Shown piece after piece: positions 1,328-15,399 of a stretch of 64,000 nucleotides of DNA (position 1 is the first letter of the stretch; every line of letters begins with the position of its first letter). The stretch is from an uncultured bacterium (lineage in GTDB: Bacteria; Krumholzibacteriota; Krumholzibacteriia; LZORAL124-64-63): contig CAVSZB010000007.1 of the NCBI GenBank assembly GCA_963732385.1, positions 960,001 through 1,024,000 of the forward strand, given 5' to 3'. The position numbers and the translations under genes were made by a program. Below the pieces are notes generated by a model. It had not been told where the DNA came from. It saw only the letters and a list, made by a program, of their open reading frames with translations, and did no database searches.

Positions 1328-2596
1328 TCAGGTGCCCGACGCGTAATCGTCCTGGTACCGGATCTGCTCCGGGGTGAGGCTGTCGACCGCCACGCCGAGC
1401 GTGCGCAGCTTCAGGCCGGCCAGCATCTGGTCCTGGGAATCCGGGATGTCGTGCACGCTGGCGTCGAGGGTGCGCCCCTCCGCCGCCAGCCTGATCAGGC
1501 TGAGGAACTGGTTCGCGAAGGACATGTCCATGACCTCGCTGGGATGCCCCTCGGCGGCGGCGAGATTGACCAGGCGCCCCTTGGCCAGCACGTAGATACG
1601 GCGGCCGTCGGGCAGCGTGTACTCTTCGCAGTTGGCCCGGATCTCCCGCACCGATTTCGCCAGGCCGGCCAGGTCGGTGAGGTTGATCTCGCAATCGTAG
1701 TGACCTGTATTGCAGACGATCGCGCCGTCCTTCATGCTCTCGAAGTGACGCTTCACGATCACGTCCTTCATGCCGGTGGCCGTGATGAAGATATCGCCGA
1801 CGCGGGCCGCCTCGTCCATCGGCAGGACCCGGTGGCCGTGCAGGACCGCCTTGAGCGCCGCCGTCGGCTTGATCTCCGTGCAGATGACGCTGGCGCCCAG
1901 ACCGTGCGCGCGCATGGCGCAGCCCCAGCCGCAGTGCCCGAAGCCGGCCACGACGAAATTCTTCCCGGCCAGCAGCACGCTCGTGGCGCGCAGGATACCG
2001 TCGATACTCGACTGCCCGGTGCCGAAAACGTTGTCGAAGTCCCACTTCGTCTCGGCGTCGTTGACGGCAATGACCGGGTACTTCAGGGCGCCGGCGGCGG
2101 CCATGGCGCGCAGCCGATGCACACCGGTCGTCGTCTCCTCCGTGCCGCCGATGATCGTCTTCGCCAGTTCCGGATGCCGGTTATGGACCGAGAAGATAAG
2201 GTCGGCGCCGTCGTCGAGCGTCAGCGTGGGGCGGAAGTCGAGCGTGCGGTCGATGGCCCAGTAGAACTCCTCGGTGTTCATGCCGTGCCAGGCGAAGATC
2301 GGCACGCCCAGATCGGCCAGCGCGGCCGCCACCTCGTCCTGCGTCGAGAGCGGATTGCAGCCGGACCACGACACCTCGGCACCCGCGGCCACGAGCGTCT
2401 TCACCAGGACCGCGGTCTCCTTCGTCACGTGGAGACAGCCCGCCACGCGCATGCCGCGCAGACTCTGCTTGCGCGCATGCTCCTCGCGCAACGCCATGAG
2501 CACCGGCATGCGGGCCTCCGCCCAGTCGATCTTCAGGTGGCCCTGGGGCGCCAGGCCGGGGTCGGCCACCTTGCAGGCAAGCTTCTGGTCAGCCAT
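1328..2596 (-). CDS. ahcY: Adenosylhomocysteinase (SAH hydrolase)
   Basis: GCLHVTKET, CNPLSTQD, DDGADL, EETTTG, KWDFDNVFGTGQS, GRLVNLAAAEGHP motifs. Confidence 0.97.
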   Translation of the reverse strand: MADQKLACKVADPGLAPQGHLKIDWAEARMPVLMALREEHARKQSLRGMRVAGCLHVTKETAVLVKTLVAAGAEVSWSGCNPLSTQDEVAAALADLGVPIFAWHGMNTEEFYWAIDRTLDFRPTLTLDDGADLIFSVHNRHPELAKTIIGGTEETTTGVHRLRAMAAAGALKYPVIAVNDAETKWDFDNVFGTGQSSIDGILRATSVLLAGKNFVVAGFGHCGWGCAMRAHGLGASVICTEIKPTAALKAVLHGHRVLPMDEAARVGDIFITATGMKDVIVKRHFESMKDGAIVCNTGHYDCEINLTDLAGLAKSVREIRANCEEYTLPDGRRIYVLAKGRLVNLAAAEGHPSEVMDMSFANQFLSLIRLAAEGRTLDASVHDIPDSQDQMLAGLKLRTLGVAVDSLTPEQIRYQDDYASGT

Positions 2597-2656
2597 TCGT
2601 TCTCCCGTCGGTTAGGGATCGGTTGCCGGACGATCGTGGGTCAGCCCCGCGCCCGG

Positions 2657-3694
2657 TCATGCGCTCACATCAGCCGGCGTGCCGGCGGCAGCGGGCCGGG
2701 CAGCCACCGCCAGGAACAGGTCCGGCCACCCGGCGCCGTCGCGACGCCGGCGCCCGCCGGCGGGCGGGGCGGCGGGCCGAGTCGCATAGGCCAGCGGCGC
2801 CAGCCCCGCCTGGCGCAGCAGCCGTTCCAGTTCATCCCGCGCGAAGCCGAGCCACTGGTGACCCCGCTCCTCCCGCATCCAGGCCTGCTCGTGCCGCGTG
2901 AAATCGAGCAGCACGACGCGTCCGCCCGGACGCACGACCCGCGCCAGCTCGGCCAGCGCCGTGGCCGGTCGCGCCACATGCCTCAGGACCATCGAGGCAA
3001 ACGCGGCATCGCACACTCCGTCGCGCAGGGGCAGCGCCTGCACGTCGGCACGCTCAAAGGTGATCCCCGTCAGCCGTTCCCGCGCGCACGCCTCGCGGGC
3101 ACGATCCAGCATGGCTGAGCTGCTGTCGACCGCGATCACCTGGCAGCCTGCCGCCGCCAGCAGCGGCAGCAGGGCCCCGGTGCCAGTGCCGACATCAAGC
3201 ACCCGCAGACCGGGCGGGACGAGAGCAGCCACCGCGGCCAGGTGGAGTTCTGAACTTTCGAAGTCCCGACGGATGTCGTCCCAGCGCCGGGCCGCCCCGG
3301 CGAAAAAGCGCCCGGCCCGCGCGTCCCGCTCGCGCAGGACCGCGGCCAGCGCGACGTCGTCGGCGACGACGCCGGGCAGCGTTCCCGCGGCCGCGAGCAC
3401 CCCGTCATGCAGCGCGACACCGCCCGCGAATTCGGCCGCTGCGACCGCGGCGTACCAGCTCCAGGTCCCTTCGCGCCGCTGCCGGATCCAGCCCGCCTCG
3501 CGCAGCAGGGCCAGATGCCGGGAAACCTGCGGCTGCCCCGCCCCCAGGACCCGCACGAGTTCCTGCACGTTCAGCTCTTCCCGCCGCAACAGCCACAGCA
3601 GACGCAGCCGGGTCGGATCGCTCACCGCCCGCAGGATCTCCTGGGGAGCGGGAGCCGACGCTCCTGGCTGGCTGGAGGCTATATATCCCTTCAT
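2657..3694 (-). CDS. ArsR HTH + SAM-dependent methyltransferase fusion regulator (SahR-like)
   Basis: N-terminal SDPTRLRLL...QPQVSRHLALLREAG (ArsR), C-terminal VLDVGTGTG methyltransferase; directly upstream of ahcY; start 3694 or 3700. Confidence 0.85.
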   Translation of the reverse strand: MKGYIASSQPGASAPAPQEILRAVSDPTRLRLLWLLRREELNVQELVRVLGAGQPQVSRHLALLREAGWIRQRREGTWSWYAAVAAAEFAGGVALHDGVLAAAGTLPGVVADDVALAAVLRERDARAGRFFAGAARRWDDIRRDFESSELHLAAVAALVPPGLRVLDVGTGTGALLPLLAAAGCQVIAVDSSSAMLDRAREACARERLTGITFERADVQALPLRDGVCDAAFASMVLRHVARPATALAELARVVRPGGRVVLLDFTRHEQAWMREERGHQWLGFARDELERLLRQAGLAPLAYATRPAAPPAGGRRRRDGAGWPDLFLAVAARPAAAGTPADVSA

Positions 3695-3732
3695 ACGCAT
3701 TAATGAATACCAAAGGCCCGGACAGCCGTCAA
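3690..3732 (-). promoter_or_regulatory. Probable promoter of sahR-ahcY with an overlapping short palindrome
   Basis: TTGACG-N17-TATTCA on the minus strand; TTCAT-N8-ATGAA inverted repeat at 3690-3707. Confidence 0.45.
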
Positions 3733-3782: not shown

Positions 3783-5099
3783 TCAGGTGGAAACGACCGG
3801 GGTCGCAACGCCGGTCGGGCCGAGGCAGGCGTACCACAGCAGGTCGGTCAACGGCAGCACCGGCAAAGCCGGCGAGCGTTTCCCCAGCGCGGCCTGGATC
3901 TGGCCTAGGCAGCCGGGATTGCCGGTCACCACGAGATCCGCTCCGGTCGCGGCCAGGTTGCCCGCCTTGCGCCGGCCCATCCGCGCCGACAGGTCAGGAT
4001 GCAGCAGCGCGTACGGTCCGCCGCTGCCGCAACAGACCTCCGCTTCCTCCGGATCGACGATCGTCAGGCCGGGGATGCGCGCCAGCAGCGCGCGCGGCTC
4101 GCGCACGATCCCCTGGCCGTGTCGCGCGTGGCAGGGATCGTGGTAGACGACGCGCAGCGGCATCGTTTGCGCCGGCGGCAGCGACCGCCCGGCCAGCAGC
4201 ACGGCGGCATCGCGCACCCGGTCCGCCAGCGCGGGCGGGGAATGCCGCAGTTCCAGACCGCAGCCGGCCGCCTCCACCACAACCACGTCCATCCCGTCGA
4301 CCGGCGCGAAGGCCGCCAGGTTCACCGCGCGCGACCGCGCTGCTGTCTCTGACTGGCCGGCGTGCGCCGCCAGCGCGCCACAGCAGGTCTGTCCCCCGAC
4401 CTCCACCAGTTCGCAGCCGGCCGCCACGAGCAGCGCGCGCAGGCGACGCTGCGACGCCGGCAGCAGGTCGGCGCTGGCGCAGCCGGCGAAAAGGGCGACG
4501 CGCAGCGGAGGGCCGGACGCGCCGGCCGGCGTCGTCAGCGGCGGCCTCTCCACCGCGGGCAAGGGCGTTCGCCCCGCGCCTGCCCGCGCGGTCAGGCGGT
4601 CCAGCAGCCGCACCAGGGCGGCGTCGCCGGGGGACCACGGCACGCTCGCCGCGAGATGCCGCAGCATCGCCGCCGGTCCGCGCCCGCCTGGCCCGGCGAA
4701 GGCGCGGACCGGCACCGTCGCGGCGCGCAGCCCCCGCAGGACGCCGCGCCGCGCCAGGAGGGAGGCCATGACCCGGGCGCCGGCGCCGCGTCGAGCCGCG
4801 TGCCCGAGCGCCTTGGCCGCCTCGAACAGATCGAGCGCCACGCCGCTCGGGCAGGCGGTGATGCAGGCCTGACAGCCGAGACACTGGTCGAAGGCGGTCA
4901 GGGCGGACGGCTCGGGCGGCCGTTCCGGAGCGGCCAGCAGTTCCCCGAGCAACAGCAGCCGCCCGCGCGGCGACTGCGCCTCGCTGCCGGTGGCGAGATA
5001 GGTGGCGCAGTGCGGCAGGCAGAGACCGCACTGGATGCAGGAGCGGAGCAGACGGTCGAGGCGCGCGCGCAGCGCGGGGTCATCGCTCGGGAGGCTCAC
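3783..5099 (-). CDS. glcF: GlcF-type Fe-S subunit of a glycolate/lactate dehydrogenase (2x[4Fe-4S] + 2 CCG domains)
   Basis: CIQCGLCLPHC, SPRGR, CLGCQACITACPSG, QTCCGAL, YHDPCH, CCGSGG, NPGC; GTG start overlaps the upstream stop (GTGA). Confidence 0.88.
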   Translation of the reverse strand: MSLPSDDPALRARLDRLLRSCIQCGLCLPHCATYLATGSEAQSPRGRLLLLGELLAAPERPPEPSALTAFDQCLGCQACITACPSGVALDLFEAAKALGHAARRGAGARVMASLLARRGVLRGLRAATVPVRAFAGPGGRGPAAMLRHLAASVPWSPGDAALVRLLDRLTARAGAGRTPLPAVERPPLTTPAGASGPPLRVALFAGCASADLLPASQRRLRALLVAAGCELVEVGGQTCCGALAAHAGQSETAARSRAVNLAAFAPVDGMDVVVVEAAGCGLELRHSPPALADRVRDAAVLLAGRSLPPAQTMPLRVVYHDPCHARHGQGIVREPRALLARIPGLTIVDPEEAEVCCGSGGPYALLHPDLSARMGRRKAGNLAATGADLVVTGNPGCLGQIQAALGKRSPALPVLPLTDLLWYACLGPTGVATPVVST

Positions 5100-7615
5100 G
5101 GCGCCCCCACCGGCAATCGCGGCAGCCAAGACGGGCGCGGCAGCCGGTCGCCGGGATCGAACAGCGCCTTCAGCCCCGCGAGCAGCGGGAGAGTCTGCAG
5201 ATCGGCGGGCGGCGGCGGTTCCGTGAACGCGCCGTCGCGCACGATGGCGTCGAGCTGCCAGGCCTCCGCCATATCGTCGTGGAGCGGCTCCGGCGATCCC
5301 GCGCCTTGCGGGCACCGCGCGATCCAGACCAGGCGCGGCGCGGTCTGGAACACGACGCCCTCCCCCGCTCCGCCCGGCCAGCCGCGCGGCACGCCGCGCG
5401 GCGCCAGCAGGTCCCACGTCCGGCCCGCGCGCGCCCATGTCGGCCACCACGGATGCACGGCGAGTCTGGCCAGTTGCGCGAAGGGAAGCCGTATCTCGTC
5501 CAGGTCGCGCAGTCCAGCCGGGCCGAGAAGCGCCGTGAGCCGTTCCGCGCGCCGGTCCAGGTCCCAGGGACGATCGCGGCCCCCGGCGACGACCAGCAGC
5601 GACCAGCCGTCGACGGGTGTCCACCGGCCGGCGCACACCGCGCCGGCCAGGTCGGCGCCCCAGGTCGCCAGTTCGCGCGCCAAAGGAGCAAGGTCGGGTG
5701 GCGGCGCGCCGGGCCGGCTGACACCGCGCCAGGCGGCCACGGTCTCGGGCAGCGGCTTGAGTTGCAGCGTCGCCCCGGTCACGCGCGCCAGCGCCCCGCC
5801 CGCCCCGCAGAGCAGCCGCGCCAGATCGTACCCGGCGACATTCTTGAAGACCGGCGCGCCGGCGCGCAGCGCCCGGCCATTGCCGGTCACGGCCCACACC
5901 TCGAGCAGCGAATCGCGCAGGGGACCGGTGCCCAGCAGCGAGGGGCAGGGCAACCCGCGGTCGATCGCCTCGCGCAGCGCGGGGGCAGTTCCGAGCCCGA
6001 CCCCGCCCGCCTCGGCAACGACCGCGCCGCACGGGACCCAGAGGCCGCGCGCCAGCGCCAGCGCCTGGATCTCCGCCAGCGGCGCCTCGCCCGGCGCACG
6101 CACCGTGAGCGATTCCCAGGCGAAACTGATCTCCTGCGGCGCCAGCGCCAGCGCCCGCGCAGGCGCCGGTGCGCCAGGCGACGGCGGCGGCGGCAGCGCC
6201 TTGCCCGGGTTGACCAGCACGCGTGGATCGAACAGTTGTTTCACGCCCCGCATCAGGTCGGCCGCGACCGGGTCGAGCTGCCGCCCGATCACGTGCAGTT
6301 TCTCCAGGCCGACGCCATGTTCGCCGGTCACGCTGCCGTCGAGCGCCAGCGTGGCGGCCAGGATCTCGTCCGCCGCCAGGTGCGCGCGGCGGGTCAGATC
6401 GGCGTCGCGATCATCGTAGTGGACGCCGGGGTGCAGATTGCCATCGCCGGCGTGGAAGACGGTCGCCACCCGCACGCCATGGCTCCGACCGATCTCGCCG
6501 ACCAGGCGCACGATCTCCGGCAGCCGCGCCAGCGGGACCACGACATCCATGGTGACGTAGTTGGGCGCGAGGCGTCCCACGGCGCCAAACGCCTTCTTGC
6601 GGCAACGCCAGAGCGCCGCCCGCTCTTCGTCATCAACGGCCCGACGCACCTCGCGGGCGCCACGCTCGCCCAGCAGCCGCGCCGCGCGGTCCGCGTCCTC
6701 GGCCACGGCCTCGGCCAGCCCGCCGAACTCCACGATCATGGCCGCTTCGACGTCGGTCGGGAAACCGAAGTGGAACGCCTCCTCCACCGCCTCGAGCATC
6801 GCCTGGTCGACCATCTCCACCGCTTCGGGCAGCAATCCGGTGCCCATCAGGGCCACCACGGCAGCCGTAGCGTCGTCGAGCCTGGGGAACAGCGCCAGCA
6901 GGGTGATCAGCGTTGGCGGTTCCGGTGTCAGCCGCACGCGCGCGGAAGTGACGAGGCCAAGCGTGCCCTCGCTGCCGGTCAGCAACGCGCGCAGGTCGAA
7001 GCCGCGTTCGTACGGGAGGCCGGCGCCGGTGACGCACAGCTGCCCCTGTGCGTCCACCCACTCCAGCGCGAGGACGTGATTGAGCGTAACACCAACCTTC
7101 AGCGTATGTGGCCCGCCGGCGTTCTCGGCGACATTGCCCCCCAGCGTGGCGGCGCTCTGGCTGCTCGGATCGGGCGCGAAACAGAGGCTGTACGGGCGCG
7201 CCGCCCGGGAGAGACGCTCGTTCACCACGCCGGCCCCGGCATCGGCGCGACCGGCCTCCGCCGCGATGATGCAGCGGTCGAGCCGCGCCAGTCCGATCAC
7301 CAAAGCACCCGCGGGCGGCACCGCCCCGCCCGACAGACCGGTGCCCGCGCCCCGCGCCACCCACGGCACCCCGTGGCGCGCACAGGCCGCCACCACGGCG
7401 GCAGCCTGCGCGGCGTCGCGCGGCAGAGCCACCCCCAGCGGCGATCCCCCCGCAAGGTGCGAGGCATCGCGGGCATAGACCGCGCGGGCGGCCGGATCGA
7501 CCAGCAGTTCCCGCGGACCGAGCAGACGACGCAGGTCGCGCAGCAGCGCCAGGCCGGCCGACGCGGCGACGGGAACGGCGGAACCGCAGGCGGTGATGAC
7601 GGGCGACAGCGGCAA
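5096..7615 (-). CDS. glcD: FAD-linked hydroxy-acid oxidase, GlcD fused to a GlcE-like domain
   Basis: GAGTGLSGG, PDPSS, GGNVAENAGG, GSEGTLG, HAGDGNLH, GEHGVG, FDP..NPGK, then a Pro-rich linker and a second module with KNVAGYDL...LKALFDP; TTG start with GGAGAG RBS. Confidence 0.88.
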   Translation of the reverse strand: MPLSPVITACGSAVPVAASAGLALLRDLRRLLGPRELLVDPAARAVYARDASHLAGGSPLGVALPRDAAQAAAVVAACARHGVPWVARGAGTGLSGGAVPPAGALVIGLARLDRCIIAAEAGRADAGAGVVNERLSRAARPYSLCFAPDPSSQSAATLGGNVAENAGGPHTLKVGVTLNHVLALEWVDAQGQLCVTGAGLPYERGFDLRALLTGSEGTLGLVTSARVRLTPEPPTLITLLALFPRLDDATAAVVALMGTGLLPEAVEMVDQAMLEAVEEAFHFGFPTDVEAAMIVEFGGLAEAVAEDADRAARLLGERGAREVRRAVDDEERAALWRCRKKAFGAVGRLAPNYVTMDVVVPLARLPEIVRLVGEIGRSHGVRVATVFHAGDGNLHPGVHYDDRDADLTRRAHLAADEILAATLALDGSVTGEHGVGLEKLHVIGRQLDPVAADLMRGVKQLFDPRVLVNPGKALPPPPSPGAPAPARALALAPQEISFAWESLTVRAPGEAPLAEIQALALARGLWVPCGAVVAEAGGVGLGTAPALREAIDRGLPCPSLLGTGPLRDSLLEVWAVTGNGRALRAGAPVFKNVAGYDLARLLCGAGGALARVTGATLQLKPLPETVAAWRGVSRPGAPPPDLAPLARELATWGADLAGAVCAGRWTPVDGWSLLVVAGGRDRPWDLDRRAERLTALLGPAGLRDLDEIRLPFAQLARLAVHPWWPTWARAGRTWDLLAPRGVPRGWPGGAGEGVVFQTAPRLVWIARCPQGAGSPEPLHDDMAEAWQLDAIVRDGAFTEPPPPADLQTLPLLAGLKALFDPGDRLPRPSWLPRLPVGAP

Positions 7616-7659
7616 GGTCTCTCCGCACGATCAGGTCGAAGGGCGCCAGGGATCCTGTT

Positions 7660-8214
7660 TCAGATCAGGTCGCGCACGATTTCGGGGCGGGGGTTGGCGA
7701 TGATCGCGGTCTGGACGAGCATCCCCTTGCCCCGCGCGACCGCCGCGGCGCTCTCCACGGCGGCCGTGACCGCCGCGAGCTGCCCCGTGAAGGTGAGAAA
7801 CGCCTTGCCGCCGAGCGCCATGGCGAGACGCATCTCCATGAATTCCACCGACGCGGTCTTCGCGGCGGCGTCGGCCGCCTCGAGCATCGTGGAGACGCTG
7901 AAGGTCTCGACCAGGCCGAGGGCGTCGAGCGAGCCGGGCTGGCAGACGTTGCCCAGGGCCGGCAGCAGCGCCGGGTGGGCATGCGGCAGGATCATCTCGT
8001 CGACCAGCGACTCCGCCGCCGTGGCCGCTCCCGCGGCAACGCTCGCGCGGACCGCGCCGACATCCCCTTCGATCAGCACGACGTACTTGCCGGAGCAGAC
8101 GGAGCGGTTCATCAGCAGCCGTACGTCGGCCGCCTTGAGCATGGCGTCGGCCGACTCGATGCCACGCACGACATTACTGGTTTCGACCATGCCGAGTGAC
8201 GGATTGCTGCTCAT
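7660..8214 (-). CDS. pduT: Tandem-domain bacterial microcompartment shell protein (BMC-T), PduT-like
   Basis: Two BMC repeats (LGMVET...ADAMLKAADV...GDVGAV; LGLVET...ADAAAKTASV...LGGKA); VCSGKY retains the PduT Fe-S-ligand Cys; 184 aa. Confidence 0.9.
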   Translation of the reverse strand: MSSNPSLGMVETSNVVRGIESADAMLKAADVRLLMNRSVCSGKYVVLIEGDVGAVRASVAAGAATAAESLVDEMILPHAHPALLPALGNVCQPGSLDALGLVETFSVSTMLEAADAAAKTASVEFMEMRLAMALGGKAFLTFTGQLAAVTAAVESAAAVARGKGMLVQTAIIANPRPEIVRDLI

Positions 8215-8244
8215 GCCTGCTCCTTCGCGGCCCGACCGGCGACC

Positions 8245-9612
8245 TCAGCCGCGCACGATCACGGTGGCCGCCTCGCCGACGCCGGCCACGCGCCCGTCGC
8301 ACGGCGCGTGCACCGGGACTCCCATCTCCCCCTCGGCCACGTCGGCCACCAGCTGCCCCCGCGCCACCCGCTCGCCCGGACGCAGCCGCGGCCGTCCTAC
8401 CGCCCCGGCGTGCTGCCGGTGCGCCACGGTGAGGGTGTCGGGCAACGGGGCCAGGTCGCGATACGGCGCCGGCGCGTCGAAACGACGCAGGTCGAGCCGC
8501 AGTTTCAACATCGCCAGCGGCACGAGGCGGCCGTCGCGCAGCGGGTGAGCCTGGCCACGGTCGGGCGGCGGCTGCGGAAGCGGCCGGCCCGCGGCGGCGG
8601 CCGCGCGCAGCGCGCGTTTCGTCCAGCGGCAGGCGTCGCGCGGGGAGAGATCCTCGGGACAGGCGTACAGATCGCAGAGGCCGCACTCGCAGCAGAGGTT
8701 GCCCCACCCATCGAAATCGTCGGCGCGGTCGGGGCCGAAGCCGAGCCCCCGCATGACGCGATGCGGTTCGACGGCGTAACCGAGCAGATAGCGCGGGCAG
8801 AACTGCGTGCAATAGCTGCACTGGTCGCACGCCGAGCGACCGACGGCGCGCTTGACGCTCTCCGGCTCGGTAACGAAGCGGACCAGACGGTGCGTCGGCG
8901 GCAAAAACAGCAGGGCGGCGGTGGTCTTGGTGACGGCGTGGGCCGGGTCGCGCACCGGCCGGCCCATCATGGCGCCCCCCTCGAGGGCGATCCACGGCTC
9001 GACGCCGCCGGTGTAACCGCCGGCCTGGGCCAGCAGATCCCCGACCGGAGCGCCGAGCGGCACGACCGCCGTGTATGGCCGGCGCACGGCGCCGCAGACG
9101 GTCAGCCAGGTCCCGGTGACCGGCTCGCCGTCGAGCGCCGCAGCCAGATTGACCAACGTCTCCACATTCTGCACCAGCACGCCCACCTCGGTGGGGAATC
9201 CCCCCGCCGGAGGGCGCCGGCCGGTCAGCGCGTGCACGAGCAGGAACTCGTCGCCCGAAGGGTAGGTGTCGTCGAGCCCGGCCACCTCGAACCCGCGCCG
9301 TCGTCCGCAGGCCTGGCGCAACCGATCCAGCAACTCACCGCGTTTTTTCTTCACGGCGATGATCCGCCGTTTCGCCCCCACCAGTTCCGCCGCCCGCGCC
9401 ACCCCGTCGAGCAGCCGCGCCGTGCGTTGCTCCATCAGGTGGAGATCCTTCTCCAGCAACGGCTCGCACTCGGCGCCATTGGCGATGATCGTGTCCGCGA
9501 CGGCGCTCAGCTTGAGATGCGTGGGGTAACCGGACCCGCCGGCGCCAACCACGCCGGCGGCGCGGATCCGCGCCAGCGACTCATCCTTGTGTGCGCGACT
9601 CACCAAGCTCAC
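8245..9612 (-). CDS. pduS: PduS-like (RnfC-related) FMN/NADH-binding Fe-S flavoprotein
   Basis: GVVGAGGSGYPTHLK, NGAECEPLL, YPSGDE, NVETL, GGAMMG, CDQCSYCTQFCP and CCECGLCDLYACP; C-terminal QHAGA...PVHA barrel as in PduS; start approximate (9603-9612). Confidence 0.87.
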   Translation of the reverse strand: MSLVSRAHKDESLARIRAAGVVGAGGSGYPTHLKLSAVADTIIANGAECEPLLEKDLHLMEQRTARLLDGVARAAELVGAKRRIIAVKKKRGELLDRLRQACGRRRGFEVAGLDDTYPSGDEFLLVHALTGRRPPAGGFPTEVGVLVQNVETLVNLAAALDGEPVTGTWLTVCGAVRRPYTAVVPLGAPVGDLLAQAGGYTGGVEPWIALEGGAMMGRPVRDPAHAVTKTTAALLFLPPTHRLVRFVTEPESVKRAVGRSACDQCSYCTQFCPRYLLGYAVEPHRVMRGLGFGPDRADDFDGWGNLCCECGLCDLYACPEDLSPRDACRWTKRALRAAAAAGRPLPQPPPDRGQAHPLRDGRLVPLAMLKLRLDLRRFDAPAPYRDLAPLPDTLTVAHRQHAGAVGRPRLRPGERVARGQLVADVAEGEMGVPVHAPCDGRVAGVGEAATVIVRG

Positions 9613-9721
9613 AGCCGCCCGGATCGGGGTTGCGCGGGAACCGGCGCCGTACGGGCCGGCGGCGAACAGGCCGGCAGTATAGGCCAGGCCGGGGGTCCCC
9701 CACAAGCCCGGCTCCACCGAC

Positions 9722-9754
9722 GACATTGACGCTGCAATGTCACCTGCCTATAAT
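9722..9754 (+). promoter_or_regulatory. Near-consensus sigma70 promoter of etfBA with a palindrome over the -35 box
   Basis: TTGACG(9726)-N17-TATAAT(9749); GACATTG-N6-CAATGTC at 9722-9741. Confidence 0.8.
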
Positions 9755-9809
9755 CCAGCCCGCGCTCGCGCCAATTGCCCGGCGCCGCCGACGGTCACGA
9801 GGAGGAACG

Positions 9810-10592
9810 ATGAAGATCGCCGTGCTGGTGAAACAGACTCCCGACTCCGAGACCCGGATCGGCCTGACCGGGCCGGCGTCGAAAATCGACGACACTAAAT
9901 TCACTCGCGTGCTGAGCCCCTACGACGCCTACGCCGTCGAGGAGGCCATCCGCATCCGGGAACGCACTCCCGGGACCGAGGTCACCGCCATCACCGTGGG
10001 ACCGCTCGACCGGGTGCGCGAAACGATCAAGAAGGACTGCCTCGCGGTCGGCTGCGACAAGGCGATCGTGGTCAGCGATCCGGCCCTCGCCGACGCGGAC
10101 GAAGCAGGCGTGGCGGCGGTCCTGGCGGCCGTCCTGCGGCAGGACGCCTACGACCTGATCCTCTGCGGCAAGCAGGCCATCGATGACGACGCCGCGCAGG
10201 TCGGCGTGCGCGTGGCGGAAATCCTGGGCCTGGCGCACGTCAGCGTGGTGACGAAACTGGAGCTTGCCGACGGCGCCCTGACCGCCCGGCGCGAAATCGA
10301 GGGGGGCCTCGAGATCGTCACCGCGCAGCTGCCGGCGCTCATCACCTGTCAGAAGGGGCTCAACGAACCGCGGCTGCCGAGCCTGCCGAACATCATGAAG
10401 GCCGGCGCGAAGCCGCTGCAGGTGATCACGTGCGCGGACCTCGGCCTGACGCCGCCCGCGCGCACCTACGAGATCCGCCAGTACGCGCCGCCGCCCGCCC
10501 GCGCGGCGTGCCGGCTGGTCCAGAACGACGATCCCGCCGCGGCGGCGGCCGAGCTGGCCAGACTGCTGCGCGAGGAAGCCAAAGTCATCTGA
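9810..10592 (+). CDS. etfB: Electron transfer flavoprotein beta subunit
   Basis: MKIAVLVKQTPD, YDAYAVEEA, GKQAIDDD..QVG, NEPRLPSL; GGAGG RBS. Confidence 0.95.
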   Translation: MKIAVLVKQTPDSETRIGLTGPASKIDDTKFTRVLSPYDAYAVEEAIRIRERTPGTEVTAITVGPLDRVRETIKKDCLAVGCDKAIVVSDPALADADEAGVAAVLAAVLRQDAYDLILCGKQAIDDDAAQVGVRVAEILGLAHVSVVTKLELADGALTARREIEGGLEIVTAQLPALITCQKGLNEPRLPSLPNIMKAGAKPLQVITCADLGLTPPARTYEIRQYAPPPARAACRLVQNDDPAAAAAELARLLREEAKVI

Positions 10593-10611
10593 GGAAGAGG
10601 GAGCCAGGACG

Positions 10612-11589
10612 ATGCCGAACATCGCCGTCTTCATTGAGCAGCGCGATGGCCAGGTCAGGAAAGTGGCCTGGCAGATGATCGCCGAAGCCCGCCGTCTCAC
10701 CGACCAGGCCGGCGGCGAGGTGTGGGGCGTGCACCTGCACGCCGCCGGTTGCGACACGGCGCAGCAGGCCGGCGCGCAGGGCGCACACCGGCTGTTCACC
10801 GCGCAGCACGACCAGTTCAGGCTCTACAACAGCGAGGCCTGGACCGCCGCGATCGTGACGTTCGCGCGCGAGCACAAGCCCGACCTCATCCTGATCGGCG
10901 CCACCGCCCTCGGCAAGGACCTCGCGCCGAAGGTGGCGCAGCGTCTCGGCGCCGCCTGCATCAGCGACAGCATCGCGATCCGGTACGACGGCGCCGCCTT
11001 CGCGGTGCGCCGCCCCATCTATGCCGGCAAGTGCTATGTGGACGTCGTGCCGAAGACCAGCCCCGCCGTGGTGGTCGCGCGCCCGAACGCCTTCGCCCTC
11101 GGCGCGGGCGACGGCGGCGCCGCCGCCGAGACCCCCTTCGCGCCCGGCGTGGACGGTATCGATCTGAAGGCGCGCGTGATCGAAGTGCAGGCGGCGGAAG
11201 GCCGGAAGGTCGAATTGACCGAGGCGGAGGTCATCGTCTCGGGCGGCCGCGGCATCAAGGGCCCCGAGCACTATCACCTGATCGAGGAACTGGCCGCCAG
11301 CCTCGGCGCCGCCGCCGGCGCCAGCCGCGCCATCGTCGATGCCGGCTGGGTCCCCCACGCCAACCAGGTCGGACAGACCGGCAAGACGGTCAGCCCCAAC
11401 CTCTACATCGCCTGCGGCATCAGCGGCGCCATCCAGCATCTGGCCGGCATGTCGTCGAGCAAGTGCATCGTCGCGATCAACAAGGATCCCAACGCCCCCA
11501 TCTTCAAGGTCGCCGACTACGGCATCGTGGGCGACCTCTTCCAGGTCGTGCCGGCGCTGCAGGCGGAAATCGGGAAATTGAAGGGGTAG
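10612..11589 (+). CDS. etfA: Electron transfer flavoprotein alpha subunit
   Basis: [50 protein letters not shown]. Confidence 0.96.
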
Positions 11590-12175: not shown

Positions 12176-13267
12176 TCAGGCGCGAGCCTGGCCCGGCCTG
12201 CCCGCCGCCGCGTTCGCCACGTGCCCTCCGCGCAGGCGTGTCTCGACCGCAGCCAGGGCGTCGTCCGCCTCGGCAACGAGTTCCGCGAGGATCTCGCGCA
12301 GCGGCTGCACGCGGTTGACGAGCCCGACGGACTGGCCGGCCATCAGGGACCCGGCCTCCACTTCGCCGTCGACCGCGGCGCGGCGCAGGCTGCCCACCCA
12401 GAAGTGCTCGACTTCGTACTGCGCTTCGGGGCGGGTGATCTCGCCCGCGCGGAGCCTTTCCAGCAGCGTCAGCTGCAGGCGTCCGAACTCCTCCATGGCC
12501 TCGTTTTGCAGCGCGCGCACCGCCACCACGGGCAGCTTGCTGCTGTACTGCGGCGTGGAGATCGCTTCGCGCGAGCGGGCTTTCATGAAGACCTGCTTGA
12601 AGCGCGCGTGGGCGCCGCACTCCTCGGCCACCACGAAGCGCGTGCCGAGCTGGGCGCCGGCCGCTCCCATCAGGCAGAGATGGCCGATCATGCGGCCGTC
12701 GGCGATTCCGCCGGCGATGAAGATCGGCACCTCGTCGAACCTGAACAGGATCTCCTGCAGCAGCACGGTCGTCGAGACATGCCCGATGTGCCCGCCCGCC
12801 TCGCTCCCCTCGAGCACGAGCGCGTCGGCACCGTAGTCGATCATGCGCCGGGCGATGGAATCGGTGCTGGCGAAGCAAATCACCTTCGCGCCGGAATCCT
12901 TCGCCTTCTGCACCTCACTCTGGCGCGGGATCGAGCCGGCGAAAAACATGTGGCTGAGCCGTTTCTCGCAGATGATGTCGAGGTGCGCCTGGTAGTTGGG
13001 CGCGATGACGATGATGTTCGCGCCGAACGGCCGGTCCGTCAGGGCGCGCGTCTCGTCGATGGAAGCGGCGAACTGCGACGGCGGCAGATTGCCCGCGGCC
13101 AGCACGCCGAAGGCGCCCAGGTCGCTCATCTGCGAGACCAGCTTCGGCTCGCTGATCCAGGTCATCGCGCCGCACATGATCGGCAGTTCGACACCGAGAA
13201 AATCCTGGCCGGCCTGCCAGAGCCGGTTCAGGCGCGGAGTCGACCGTACGCTCTCCTGCTTCGCCAT
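12176..13267 (-). CDS. FabK/nitronate monooxygenase-family FMN oxidoreductase
   Basis: GAMTWIS, TDRPFGAN, EGSEAGGHIG, AGGIADG, QLGTRF, MAGQSVG. Confidence 0.88.
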   Translation of the reverse strand: MAKQESVRSTPRLNRLWQAGQDFLGVELPIMCGAMTWISEPKLVSQMSDLGAFGVLAAGNLPPSQFAASIDETRALTDRPFGANIIVIAPNYQAHLDIICEKRLSHMFFAGSIPRQSEVQKAKDSGAKVICFASTDSIARRMIDYGADALVLEGSEAGGHIGHVSTTVLLQEILFRFDEVPIFIAGGIADGRMIGHLCLMGAAGAQLGTRFVVAEECGAHARFKQVFMKARSREAISTPQYSSKLPVVAVRALQNEAMEEFGRLQLTLLERLRAGEITRPEAQYEVEHFWVGSLRRAAVDGEVEAGSLMAGQSVGLVNRVQPLREILAELVAEADDALAAVETRLRGGHVANAAAGRPGQARA

Positions 13268-13383: not shown

Positions 13384-15399
13384 TCAGCCGTCCGCCAGCC
13401 GGTCCCGGAGCGTCTCGGCAAGGTCGCGCACGACCAGCGTGTCATCGCGGCCGGTCTCCTTGACACCGTCGCCGAGCATCGTCAGGCAGAAGGGGCAGGC
13501 GCTGGCCACTTCCCGCGCGCCGGTGCCGGCCGCCTCGGCGATGCGGTGGTGGTTGATGCGGGTGCCGAGTTTCTCCTCGAGGAACATGCGGCCGCCGCCG
13601 GCGCCGCAGCAGAAGCCCTCGCGGCGGTGGCTCGGCATCTCGACCAGTTCGAGGTCCGGCACGGACCTGAGCACATCGCGCGGGGCATCATAGATGCCGT
13701 TGTGGCGGCCGAGATAGCAGGAGTCGTGGTAGGTCAGCTTCAGCGGCTCGCCGCCGCGCAGCTTCAGCCTCCCCTCGGCGAGGAGGCGAAAGAGCAGTTC
13801 GGAATGGTGGCGAACCTCGACGCCCTCCAGGCCGAACTGCGGGTACTCGTTGCGGAGCGTGTTGAAGCAGTGCGGACAGGCCGTGACGAACTTCCGCGCG
13901 CCGTAACGCCTGAAGGTGTCGATGTTCAGCTGCGCCTGCATCTGGAACAGGTATTCGTGGCCAAGCCGGCGCGACGGATCGCCGCAGCACCCCTCCTCAA
14001 GACCAAGCACGGCGTAGTCGAGACCGGCGCGATCGAACAGTTCGCAGGTGGCGCGCACGACGGCGCGGTTACGCTCGTCGAACGAGCCGGCGCAGCCGAC
14101 GAAGAAGAGCCACTCCGCGCTACCCTTCGCGCCCAGGACCGGCACCGGGGCGTCGCCGATCCAGTCGGCGCGCGCCGCCGCCGGCGCGTTCCACGGGTTG
14201 CTGTTGTTCTCCAGACCCCGCAGCGCGTTCTGCATCTCGGACGGGACACGCGCCTCGGTCATCGTCAGGTACCGACGCTGGTCGATGAGGTGCGGCACGT
14301 GCTCGATCACTACCGGACACGCCGTCTGACACCAGCCGCAGGTCGTGCACGACCAGAGCGTGTCGTCGGTATTGACGTCGCCCGCCAGACGCGGGCGCTC
14401 CAGCGACGCGGCCAGCGCCGCCGCCTCGGCGGGCCGACCCCGCGCCTTCAGTTTGCCGACCTCCTCCAGCCGCGCGCCCAGGCTGAACAGATGGTCGCGC
14501 TCGTCGCAGATCAACGACTTCGGCCGCAACGGCTTGCCGGTCACGGCGGTAGGACAGTGCTCATTGCAGCGTCCGCATTCCGTGCAGGTGAACATGTCCA
14601 GCAGCCGCCGCCATGAGAATTCCTCCACCCGGCCCACGCCGAACGATTCGCGCCCCTCGAACTGCAGCGGATCGGACGCCAGCGGCGGCGTGAGACGCCT
14701 GAGCCAGACGGCCGGCAGCGAGGTCAGGACGTGGAAGTGCTTGCCATACGGCAGGTAATTGAGGAAGCCGAGGACCAGCGCGCAGTGCGCCCAGTACATG
14801 GTCTGCCACCAGTTGCGCGCGGCGGCGGAGTCGAGGCCGACGAACAGCCCTGCCAGCGCGCGCGAGACGAACGCGTAGCCGGCCTCCGGGTGGTCGGGGC
14901 GCAGCCGCAGCAGCGCCGCATCGCCCAGCAGGTCGGTCAGCATGAGCACCGCGATCCAGAGCAGGATGAGCACCCCCTCCACCGACAACGGCAGACGCTC
15001 CGGCCGCGTGACCAGCCGCCGCCAAAGGCCGAAGAGCACCGCGACGATCACGACGACGGCGAAGATGTCCTTCAGCGTGGCGTAGATCAGGCCGGGGCCA
15101 TCACCGAGCAGCGGCAGGTGGAAGTCGGGGGCAAAACCGCGGCCGATGAGGGTCAGCGTGCGCAGCGACACGACGAGGAAGCCGGCGAAGATACCCAGGT
15201 GCATCAGCCCGGCGCCCCGCTCCTGCAGCAGGCGTTGCTGTCCGAAGCCGATCACCAGCAGCGCCCTCAGACGCGCCCAGGGCCGGTCGGTGCGGCGGTC
15301 CGGCTCGGCGGCGCGCAGCAGCCACCAGCGGGCGGCGACCGTGTTGGCGAAGAAGGCGAGGGCCAGCAGCAGCAGCAGGGTCATCGCGACGGGATTCAT
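13384..15399 (-). CDS. Membrane-bound Fe-S oxidoreductase, FadF / ETF:quinone oxidoreductase type (HdrE-like membrane part + HdrD-like CCG part)
   Basis: N-terminal TM helices with His residues, YLPYGKHFH, CTECGRCNEHCP, CTTCGWCQTACP, CCGD, CPHC, YHDSCYLGRHN, CCGAGGG, CPFC. Confidence 0.88.
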   Translation of the reverse strand: MNPVAMTLLLLLALAFFANTVAARWWLLRAAEPDRRTDRPWARLRALLVIGFGQQRLLQERGAGLMHLGIFAGFLVVSLRTLTLIGRGFAPDFHLPLLGDGPGLIYATLKDIFAVVVIVAVLFGLWRRLVTRPERLPLSVEGVLILLWIAVLMLTDLLGDAALLRLRPDHPEAGYAFVSRALAGLFVGLDSAAARNWWQTMYWAHCALVLGFLNYLPYGKHFHVLTSLPAVWLRRLTPPLASDPLQFEGRESFGVGRVEEFSWRRLLDMFTCTECGRCNEHCPTAVTGKPLRPKSLICDERDHLFSLGARLEEVGKLKARGRPAEAAALAASLERPRLAGDVNTDDTLWSCTTCGWCQTACPVVIEHVPHLIDQRRYLTMTEARVPSEMQNALRGLENNSNPWNAPAAARADWIGDAPVPVLGAKGSAEWLFFVGCAGSFDERNRAVVRATCELFDRAGLDYAVLGLEEGCCGDPSRRLGHEYLFQMQAQLNIDTFRRYGARKFVTACPHCFNTLRNEYPQFGLEGVEVRHHSELLFRLLAEGRLKLRGGEPLKLTYHDSCYLGRHNGIYDAPRDVLRSVPDLELVEMPSHRREGFCCGAGGGRMFLEEKLGTRINHHRIAEAAGTGAREVASACPFCLTMLGDGVKETGRDDTLVVRDLAETLRDRLADG

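What the first reader, a model, noticed from the sequence alone, without database searches (positions are those of the whole stretch)
3783..9612. Shell-less PduS-PduT microcompartment redox pair in an operon with a GlcDE-GlcF hydroxy-acid dehydrogenase
Seen: four co-oriented genes, pduS-like > pduT-like > glcD/E fusion > glcF, with gaps of 30 bp, 44 bp and a GTGA overlap. The BMC-T protein keeps the Fe-S-ligand Cys (VCSGKY). I recognised no BMC-H, BMC-P (EutN/CcmL), aldehyde dehydrogenase, PduL or signature enzyme in the 64 kb. Established: in Pdu-type microcompartments PduS (NADH/FMN/2x[4Fe-4S]) binds PduT, a trimeric shell protein with a pore [4Fe-4S] cluster proposed to pass electrons across the shell; GlcDEF oxidises glycolate or D-lactate. 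Inference: this is either a free-standing electron-transfer complex (hydroxy-acid > GlcDE/F > PduT > PduS > NAD+) that reuses a shell protein as a redox wire, or a satellite locus that couples lactate/glycolate oxidation to a microcompartment encoded elsewhere. I do not know of a description of this combination.
Basis: partly seen in the sequence, partly recalled or inferred. Interest (0 to 1): 0.78.

Follow-up and report, generated by a model that had tools for sequence, protein, structure and literature searches.

The report
Satellite microcompartment NAD-recycling gene pair
Two genes of a known electron outlet of bacterial protein organelles sit in front of lactate/glycolate-dehydrogenase-like genes, far from the organelle's own genes; they likely recycle NAD+ for that organelle, and the neighbourhood is likely a lineage-specific insertion rather than a new shell-less machine.

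Summary
The four genes, gaps and pore cysteine are as described. 'Shell-less' is wrong for the genome: a shell locus (BMC-H, three BMC-P, Cys-less BMC-T, acylating aldehyde dehydrogenase) lies 465 kb away, and DeoC, RpiB and a class II aldolase with encapsulation-peptide-like extensions lie elsewhere, likely a dispersed SPU3-like deoxyribose microcompartment. PduS/PduT is the published MNdh/BMC-TSE NAD+-recycling module, already known from satellite loci. In this phylum (relatives are labelled Ca. Krumholzibacteriota) PduS occurs in 7 of 208 genomes, one clade, always in a variable slot between etfB and a family-wide (lpdA)-glcD/E-glcF operon that 71 of 86 family members carry, mostly without the pair; the same slot holds efflux pumps or sulfatases elsewhere. 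None of 160 outside pduT loci carries glcDEF. Best reading (0.70): satellite module co-transcribed with, but not specifically wired to, GlcDEF. Open minority case (0.12): GlcF is the module's still unknown outer electron acceptor. The scan noted the same arrangement before in another genome.

The parts
8245..9612 (-). pduS-like gene = MNdh (metabolosome NADH dehydrogenase; FMN + 2x[4Fe-4S]), 455 aa
   Evidence: PF01512 16-157, PF10531 171-218, PF13534 261-323, PF13375 388-449; Cys motifs at 262 and 307 conserved in 12 aligned homologues
7660..8214 (-). pduT-like tandem shell protein = BMC-TSE, pore Cys40 (CSGK), 184 aa
   Evidence: two PF00936 domains; aligns to PduT structures 3nwg, 3pac, 3n79; C40, G42, K43 invariant in 84 sequences
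5096..7615 (-). fused GlcD/GlcE-like FAD 2-hydroxy-acid dehydrogenase, 839 aa; GlcE half degenerate
   Evidence: PF01565 + PF02913; TIGR00387 421 bits, PRK11282 92 bits, both under cut-off; HAGDGNLH and GEHG motifs; model pLDDT 81.7, best fold matches D-lactate dehydrogenases 9qit, 8jdv, 7qh2 over about 460 residues
3783..5099 (-). GlcF-like iron-sulfur subunit (2x[4Fe-4S] + two CCG domains), 438 aa
   Evidence: PF13183/PF13534 + 2x PF02754; all cluster Cys invariant in 36 homologues; homologues named glycolate oxidase iron-sulfur subunit by JGI
9613..9809 (.). divergent promoter region: TTGACG-17-TATAAT (9726-9754, + strand, towards etfB); TATACT -10-like box at 9681-9676 facing pduS
   Evidence: scan finds the + strand site, 11 of 12 matches; its hexamers are conserved in 15 of 15 aligned relatives; the minus-strand box is read by eye and is under the scan's threshold
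9810..11589 (+). etfB (9810-10592) and etfA (10612-11589), divergent; fixed flank of the variable slot
   Evidence: PF01012, PF00766; divergent from glcD in 18 of the 21 family loci tallied
1328..3700 (-). ArsR/methyltransferase regulator (3700-2657) and ahcY (2596-1328): downstream flank, probably a separate unit
   Evidence: PF01022 + PF08241; PF05221 + PF00670; syntenic in most family loci

Best explanation
The pduS-pduT pair matches the published MNdh/BMC-TSE module and likely serves as a satellite NAD+-recycling outlet for a microcompartment whose shell and aldehyde dehydrogenase genes lie 465 kb away, while its place in front of glcD/E-glcF is likely one lineage-specific insertion into a variable slot of an older operon. 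Shown: gene content, order, distribution. Inferred mechanism: DeoC (encapsulation-peptide-like N-terminus) cleaves deoxyribose-5-phosphate inside the shell; the acylating AldDh turns acetaldehyde into acetyl-CoA and makes NADH; MNdh, docked on the luminal face of the PduT trimer, oxidises NADH and passes electrons via FMN and two [4Fe-4S] clusters to the pore cluster bound by three Cys40, and out to non-specific soluble carriers. GlcD/E-GlcF would work separately as a quinone-linked 2-hydroxy-acid (D-lactate or glycolate) dehydrogenase and share only a promoter with the pair.
For: Shell locus with BMC-H, 3 BMC-P, Cys-less BMC-T and AldDh over the PRK15398 cut-off (592 vs 403) at C7:499436-502851. 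No Fe-ADH and no PduL found, so another NAD+ route is useful. DeoC next to deoB and RpiB next to adenosine deaminase carry helix-plus-linker extensions; in 5 of 10 relatives' shell loci an RpiB-DeoC gene pair in or near one frame lies directly upstream of the same shell cluster, the SPU3 signature. Satellite MNdh pairs are published (PVM 18 of 20, ACI 5 of 7) and common here: 43 of 53 and 17 of 21 well-flanked outside loci have no other BMC gene. PduS in 7 of 208 phylum genomes, one clade, against GlcF in 71 of 86 family genomes. 13 of 16 non-carrier family loci have lpdA or a remnant directly before glcD; the slot also holds co-oriented RND-pump-like genes (one abutting lpdA), sulfatases and others. 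In 3 of 6 resolvable carriers lpdA separates pduT from glcD. 0 of 160 outside loci have glcD with glcF.
Against: In all 6 carriers where the next gene can be seen, pduT is followed closely by lpdA or glcD, and the link has lasted across five genera at 61-94% PduS identity, longer than a neutral insertion need last. In G000, G200 and G026 the NAD-linked flavoprotein gene lpdA is gone where pduS-pduT stands, which could be a replacement. No BMC-Tdp, usual in SPU3, was found. Encapsulation peptides are judged by eye. No expression or binding was shown.
Confidence: 0.7

Rival explanations
1. GlcF is the outer electron acceptor of the module: NADH in the shell > MNdh > PduT pore cluster > GlcF ferredoxin domain > CCG clusters > quinone (or GlcD reducing pyruvate/glyoxylate), and the operon was kept because it wires the organelle to the respiratory chain.
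For: Tight operon kept in five genera; GlcF keeps all cluster ligands; the direction is downhill from the published cluster potentials of -349, -217 and -147 mV to menaquinone (about -75 mV, recalled); the in vivo acceptor is unknown in print.
Against: One origin only. 0 of 160 outside loci; 'pf02913' 0 hits in the published MNdh locus table. The paper argues the acceptor is non-specific and small enough to reach the concave pore; GlcF is 438 aa and normally bound to GlcD/E (recalled). GlcDEF is carried without the pair by most of the family. lpdA intervenes in half the carriers.
Confidence: 0.12
2. Metabolic co-regulation without electron contact: the encapsulated class II aldolase makes glycolaldehyde or lactaldehyde (for example from ribulose-1-phosphate formed by MtnA), the AldDh route yields glycolate or lactate, and GlcDEF consumes it, so both gene sets are wanted at the same time.
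For: The aldolase has a C-terminal peptide-like tail in all 6 PduS carriers examined, in G118 and in families f3 and f6, but not in 15 other family members. Best, sub-threshold NCBIfam matches include ribulose-1-phosphate aldolase; MtnA is present. GlcF and shell genes occur in the same four families and in none of the other five.
Against: No FGGY kinase in G000 and in 84 of 86 relatives, so no fucose/rhamnose route; no malate synthase in G000 and in 82 of 86; MtnA is in 192 of 201 genomes and does not discriminate; within the family shell and GlcF presence are not clearly associated (64/11/7/4, Fisher p 0.09, kin not independent); the clearest signature enzyme is DeoC, whose product is acetaldehyde.
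Confidence: 0.09
3. The divergently encoded ETF (with the nearby membrane Fe-S/CCG oxidoreductase at 15399-13384) is the acceptor, and the pair is kept here for the bidirectional promoter shared with etfBA.
For: pduS is head-to-head with etfB at about 200 bp in G000, G200, G155 and G026; one outside locus (L082) has etfAB next to the pair, converging.
Against: etfBA flanks the slot in carriers and non-carriers alike; unrelated genes separate them in G056 and G120; 1 of 160 outside loci.
Confidence: 0.06
4. A free-standing, shell-less complex drives hydroxy-acid > GlcDEF > PduT > PduS > NAD+.
For: No other shell gene in the 64 kb; tight gene spacing.
Against: A shell locus exists in G000 and in the five other carriers checked, G026, G200, G056, G155, G120, and a BMC-H-type match in G199. 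Measured direction is NADH outward. Lactate/pyruvate (about -190 mV) and glycolate/glyoxylate (about -90 mV) to NAD+ (-320 mV) is uphill without bifurcation (recalled values).
Confidence: 0.03

Closest known systems
MNdh/BMC-TSE (PduS/PduT homologue) NAD+-recycling module, Sutter et al. PNAS 2024, PMC11626177
   Same: Same four-domain MNdh with C-terminal RnfC_N, adjacent BMC-Ts with pore Cys, AldDh-type microcompartment in the genome, no alcohol dehydrogenase, satellite position.
   Different: Pore motif CSGK rather than CP(G/S)K (CSGK in 72 of 83 homologues); co-oriented with glcD/E-glcF, which I did not find in the text or locus table.
SPU3 sugar-phosphate-utilisation microcompartment (Sutter 2021 PMC8217296 Supplementary Data 2; Dwyer 2024 PMC11585597)
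   Same: AldDh with N-terminal peptide, DeoC and RpiB with peptides (in one frame in relatives), one BMC-H, BMC-P triplet, Cys-less BMC-Ts; MNdh rare (4 of 70 SPU3 loci in print; 7 carriers here against about 100 shell-bearing genomes).
   Different: In G000 DeoC, RpiB and the aldolase are scattered; no BMC-Tdp found.
MIC7 microcompartment (Ca. Latescibacteria, Eisenbacteria; Sutter 2021 Supplementary Data 2)
   Same: Main locus with only AldDh besides shell genes, P triplet, a Cys-less Ts and in some genomes a Cys-bearing Ts with PduS.
   Different: MIC7 has a second specialised BMC-H and a satellite Tdp, not found here; its PduS/T sits in the main locus in the four listed cases.
GlcDEF glycolate / D-lactate dehydrogenase (E. 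coli type) and FAD-linked D-lactate dehydrogenases (LctD, LDHD)
   Same: FAD-binding and cap domains, metal-binding His/Glu motifs, GlcF with 2x[4Fe-4S] and two CCG domains.
   Different: GlcD and GlcE fused, GlcE half degenerate; all under the equivalog cut-offs; no malate synthase; ancestrally preceded by lpdA.

Membership tests
MNdh/BMC-TSE module | MNdh domains PF01512, PF10531, 4Fe-4S dicluster, with PF13375 moved to the C-terminus | tested here: met
   definition in PMC11626177
MNdh/BMC-TSE module | tandem BMC-Ts gene directly adjacent | tested here: met
   30-bp gap
MNdh/BMC-TSE module | pore cysteine at the PduT C38 position | tested here: met
   C40 aligns with the PduT Cys, invariant in 84; second residue is S not P, as in 72 of 83 homologues
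MNdh/BMC-TSE module | AldDh-containing microcompartment in the same genome | tested here: met
MNdh/BMC-TSE module | NADH oxidation, three Fe-S clusters, complex on the luminal face | not testable with these tools
SPU3 microcompartment (for the distant locus) | DeoC (PF01791) and RpiB (PF02502) with encapsulation peptides, often fused | tested here: met
   TIGR00126 and TIGR01120 over cut-off with N-terminal helix-linker extensions; adjacent to the shell cluster in 5 of 10 relatives' loci; peptides judged by eye
SPU3 microcompartment (for the distant locus) | BMC-H, BMC-P triplet, Cys-less BMC-Ts, AldDh with N-terminal peptide | tested here: met
SPU3 microcompartment (for the distant locus) | BMC-Tdp shell protein | tested here: inconclusive
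   PF00936 search found only three genes; genome 95.8% complete and permuted Tdp can score weakly; no Tdp-specific model was run
MIC7 microcompartment (for the distant locus) | second specialised BMC-H and satellite Tdp | tested here: not met
   one BMC-H only; definition
GlcDEF (E. coli-type glycolate dehydrogenase) | GlcD FAD and metal sites; GlcF dicluster plus two CCG domains | tested here: met
GlcDEF (E. coli-type glycolate dehydrogenase) | curated equivalog scores for GlcD, GlcE, GlcF | tested here: not met
   421 vs 568 and 383 vs 897; 92 vs 284; 159 vs 333 bits
GlcDEF (E. coli-type glycolate dehydrogenase) | glycolate as substrate, quinone as acceptor | not testable with these tools
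   closest solved folds are D-lactate dehydrogenases; malate synthase absent
Shell-less electron-transfer complex (proposed) | no shell or AldDh genes in the genome | tested here: not met

The most novel reading that the evidence does not exclude
In this Krumholzibacteriota clade GlcF is the dedicated outer electron acceptor of the BMC-TSE pore cluster, so NADH made inside a deoxyribose-degrading microcompartment is drained across the shell into the quinone pool through a hydroxy-acid dehydrogenase; it would be the first named in vivo acceptor for MNdh/BMC-TSE and the first wiring of a microcompartment to respiration.
Probability: 0.12. Interest if true: 0.7.

Novelty: new member of a known kind. 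Interest (0 to 1): 0.27.

Why it matters
The pair itself is ordinary. The one open question it touches is what takes the electrons from BMC-TSE in vivo, which PMC11626177 leaves unanswered; this operon supplies named candidates (GlcF, ETF) for a direct assay, but the comparative evidence for them is a single evolutionary event. A side result is useful for cataloguing: about half of the sampled phylum carries an SPU3-like nucleoside-sugar microcompartment whose enzymes are dispersed in this clade, which may explain the 'incomplete core' look of MIC7-like loci.

Tried and rejected
RNA evidence: four metatranscriptome runs of one freshwater-sediment study hold a related strain at small share; contigs cross the pduS/pduT, glcE/glcF and glcF/arsR junctions and the pduT-glcD gap (6 bases into the next gene), but no silent control was laid and contigs show no single transcript, so I do not count it as co-transcription. 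Terminator scan found nothing between the four genes, with 2 sites against 2.7 expected, uninformative. Assembly artefact for the glcD/E fusion: rejected. Longer 493-aa pduS start at 9726: rejected, it overlaps the etfB promoter and relatives begin near 9612. glcD near the pair in three Acidobacteria (L043, L044, L049): rejected as support, it is separated by opposite-strand genes or on the other strand and lacks glcE/F. Fucose/rhamnose (PVM-like) substrate: rejected for lack of FGGY kinases. GlcD tree could not show the carriers to be one clade (2 changes, one origin not ruled out; quick tree); both trees are quick trees, the careful search did not finish. lpdA as a BMC partner: no sign; G000 has three other lpdA genes beside 2-oxoacid dehydrogenase genes. 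Inverted repeat 9722-9741 as a conserved operator: not kept in relatives.
Full report
Observation. Domain content fits the names. PduT has C40-S-G-K; C40 is invariant in an alignment of 84, and CSGK is the common form in this branch (72 of 83 parsed; CPGK 7, CAGK 3, one unparsed). The glcD/E fusion is one frame in all 11 relatives aligned; its model (pLDDT 81.7) matches D-lactate dehydrogenase folds over the GlcD half, and the GlcD, GlcE and GlcF scores are all under NCBIfam's equivalog cut-offs, so 'GlcDEF-like' is the most that can be said. Database relatives of GlcF are labelled Ca. Krumholzibacteriota.

The genome is not shell-less. PF00936 and PF03319 searches found a cluster at C7:499436-502851, 465 kb from the window's pair: BMC-H, BMC-P, aldehyde dehydrogenase, BMC-T, BMC-P, BMC-P. 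The AldDh passes the PduP/EutE-type model (592 vs 403 bits) and the BMC-T there has no pore Cys. No PduL and no Fe-alcohol dehydrogenase were found in this 95.8% complete genome. Three scattered enzymes carry helix-plus-linker extensions of the encapsulation-peptide kind, judged by eye: DeoC next to phosphopentomutase (C7:645 kb), RpiB next to adenosine deaminase (C3:454 kb) and the only class II aldolase (C4:19 kb). In 5 of the 10 relatives' shell loci fetched at 20 kb (G051, G055, G047, G070, G098) RpiB and DeoC lie in one frame with an internal peptide directly before the same shell cluster, which is how SPU3 is described in Supplementary Data 2 of PMC8217296 (parts 2-3 of 6 read). The stripped locus in G000 looks like MIC7 in that same file. 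No BMC-Tdp was found. I infer a dispersed SPU3-like organelle: deoxyribose-5-P to acetaldehyde to acetyl-CoA plus NADH (core chemistry from passages of PMC11585597).

The pair is published. PMC11626177 (parts 1-2 of 8 and passages read) renames PduS/PduT homologues MNdh/BMC-TSE, finds them in 2,172 of over 7,000 loci, adjacent in 97%, shows electron flow from NADH through FMN and three Fe-S clusters (-349, -217, -147 mV), notes frequent satellite placement (PVM 18 of 20, ACI 5 of 7) and likely horizontal transfer, and leaves the in vivo acceptor open, arguing it is non-specific. Its table lists MNdh in 4 of 70 SPU3 loci.

Is the link to glcDEF conserved? glcD alone was near in 3 and 1, glcF-like weak hits in 2 and 0; the three Acidobacteria cases are not operonic. 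Of well-flanked loci, 43 of 53 and 17 of 21 had no other BMC gene, so stand-alone pairs are the norm in this branch. Inside the phylum, PduS occurs in 7 of 208 genomes, all in the window's family, five genera; the five complete sequences form one clade (SH-aLRT 100, quick tree). Shell BMC-T matches occur in 102 of 201 and GlcF in 86 of 201 (71 of 86 other family members). So both the organelle and GlcDEF mostly exist without the pair.

What the locus looked like before. The block ahcY - arsR/MT - glcF - glcE/D - [slot] - etfB - etfA is family-wide. Of 16 non-carrier family loci fetched (chosen from the 71 for score and contig length), 13 have lpdA or a decayed remnant directly before glcD and 3 do not. 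The slot also holds co-oriented RND-pump-like genes (G105, G055, G198; in G055 abutting lpdA), sulfatases, and other unrelated genes (the pump label is my reading of the sequences). Carriers read pduS-pduT-lpdA-glcD/E-glcF (G056, G120; G199 across a contig break) or pduS-pduT-glcD/E-glcF (G000, G200; G026 across an assembly break); G155 shows only etfB/pduS at a contig end. The simplest history is one insertion behind the operon's promoter, then loss of lpdA in one branch. Against this: the link has lasted across five genera, and the GlcD tree does not prove one clade.

Rivals. GlcF as outer acceptor is thermodynamically allowed and would answer the open question, but rests on one event (0.12). 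A metabolic link through the peptide-tagged aldolase is suggested by the tail's presence in 6 of 6 carriers examined plus G118 and five genomes of two other shell-bearing families, and its absence in 15 other family members, one f2 genome and 7 of 7 genomes without shell matches (35 genomes plus G000 examined); but FGGY kinases (2 of 86) and malate synthase (4 of 86) are nearly absent from the family, MtnA is near-universal (192 of 201), and shell and GlcF presence are not clearly associated within the family (0.09). ETF as acceptor (0.06) and a shell-less complex (0.03) are weaker.

Novelty. No paper joining this pair to glcDEF came up in searches (listings; passages of PMC4207490, PMC5615132, PMC11725831 read), nor in the supplements searched; two large supplementary archives of PMC8217296 could not be read and may list such loci, and the library lacks most subscription papers. 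DHAP-shunt papers were seen as listings only. An earlier scan note on another genome (e1-2796168) reached the same reading; I had stated mine before seeing it. Verdict: a new member of a known module in a lineage-specific setting; interest 0.27.

Noticed in passing
G000:C7:499436-502851; L186-L190 (G051, G055, G047, G070, G098): An SPU3-like microcompartment is widespread in this phylum (BMC-T match in 102 of 201 genomes, four families). RpiB-DeoC is fused beside the shell cluster in some genomes and dispersed with separate N-terminal peptides in G000's clade, which makes the main locus look like MIC7.
   Followed up: partly
G000:C4:18693-19463 (L191:1456-2226): Class II aldolase with a C-terminal encapsulation-peptide-like tail; the tail tracks the PduS-carrying clade within the family and is also in families f3 and f6, but is missing in 15 other family members and in 7 genomes without shell genes.
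   Followed up: partly
L169:9271-10509, L179:9123-10424, L168:9576-10661, L160:9391-10641, L178:9867-11240: The lpdA gene before glcD/E is decaying in several lineages (32-43% identity, redox-active CxxxxC region or dimerisation domain lost) yet stays as an open frame.
   Followed up: partly
window 9726-9754: Near-consensus sigma-70 promoter of etfB; both hexamers conserved in 15 of 15 family genomes aligned although the flanks are not.
   Followed up: yes
window 9722-9741: Perfect 7-6-7 inverted repeat (GACATTG / CAATGTC) over the etfB -35 box; not kept in relatives.
   Followed up: partly
window 1328-3700: ArsR-methyltransferase gene followed by ahcY, resembling the SahR-sahH unit (name recalled), with a promoter-like TTGACG-17-TATTCA in the gap after glcF.
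   Followed up: no
window 13384-15399 and 12176-13249: Membrane protein with Fe-S dicluster and CCG domains plus a FabK/NMO-like flavoenzyme, syntenic with etfBA across the family; resembles ETF:menaquinone oxidoreductases (recalled).
   Followed up: no
G001:C1:86953-88481; G004:C3:55533-57058; G140:C538:794296-795954; G166:C641:417-1954: A more distant class II aldolase lies directly beside mtnA in four genomes (coordinates), a DHAP-shunt-like or MtnB-like pairing.
   Followed up: no
L154:16160-17235 (G026:C5 end): About 40 codons of glcD follow pduT and then switch into unrelated sequence, while the rest of glcD starts at another contig's end: likely a mis-assembly.
   Followed up: partly
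L084, L015, L020: PduS from bins labelled Arcobacter and Chitinophagaceae nest inside Acidobacteriota on the tree: transfer or mis-binned contigs.
   Followed up: no
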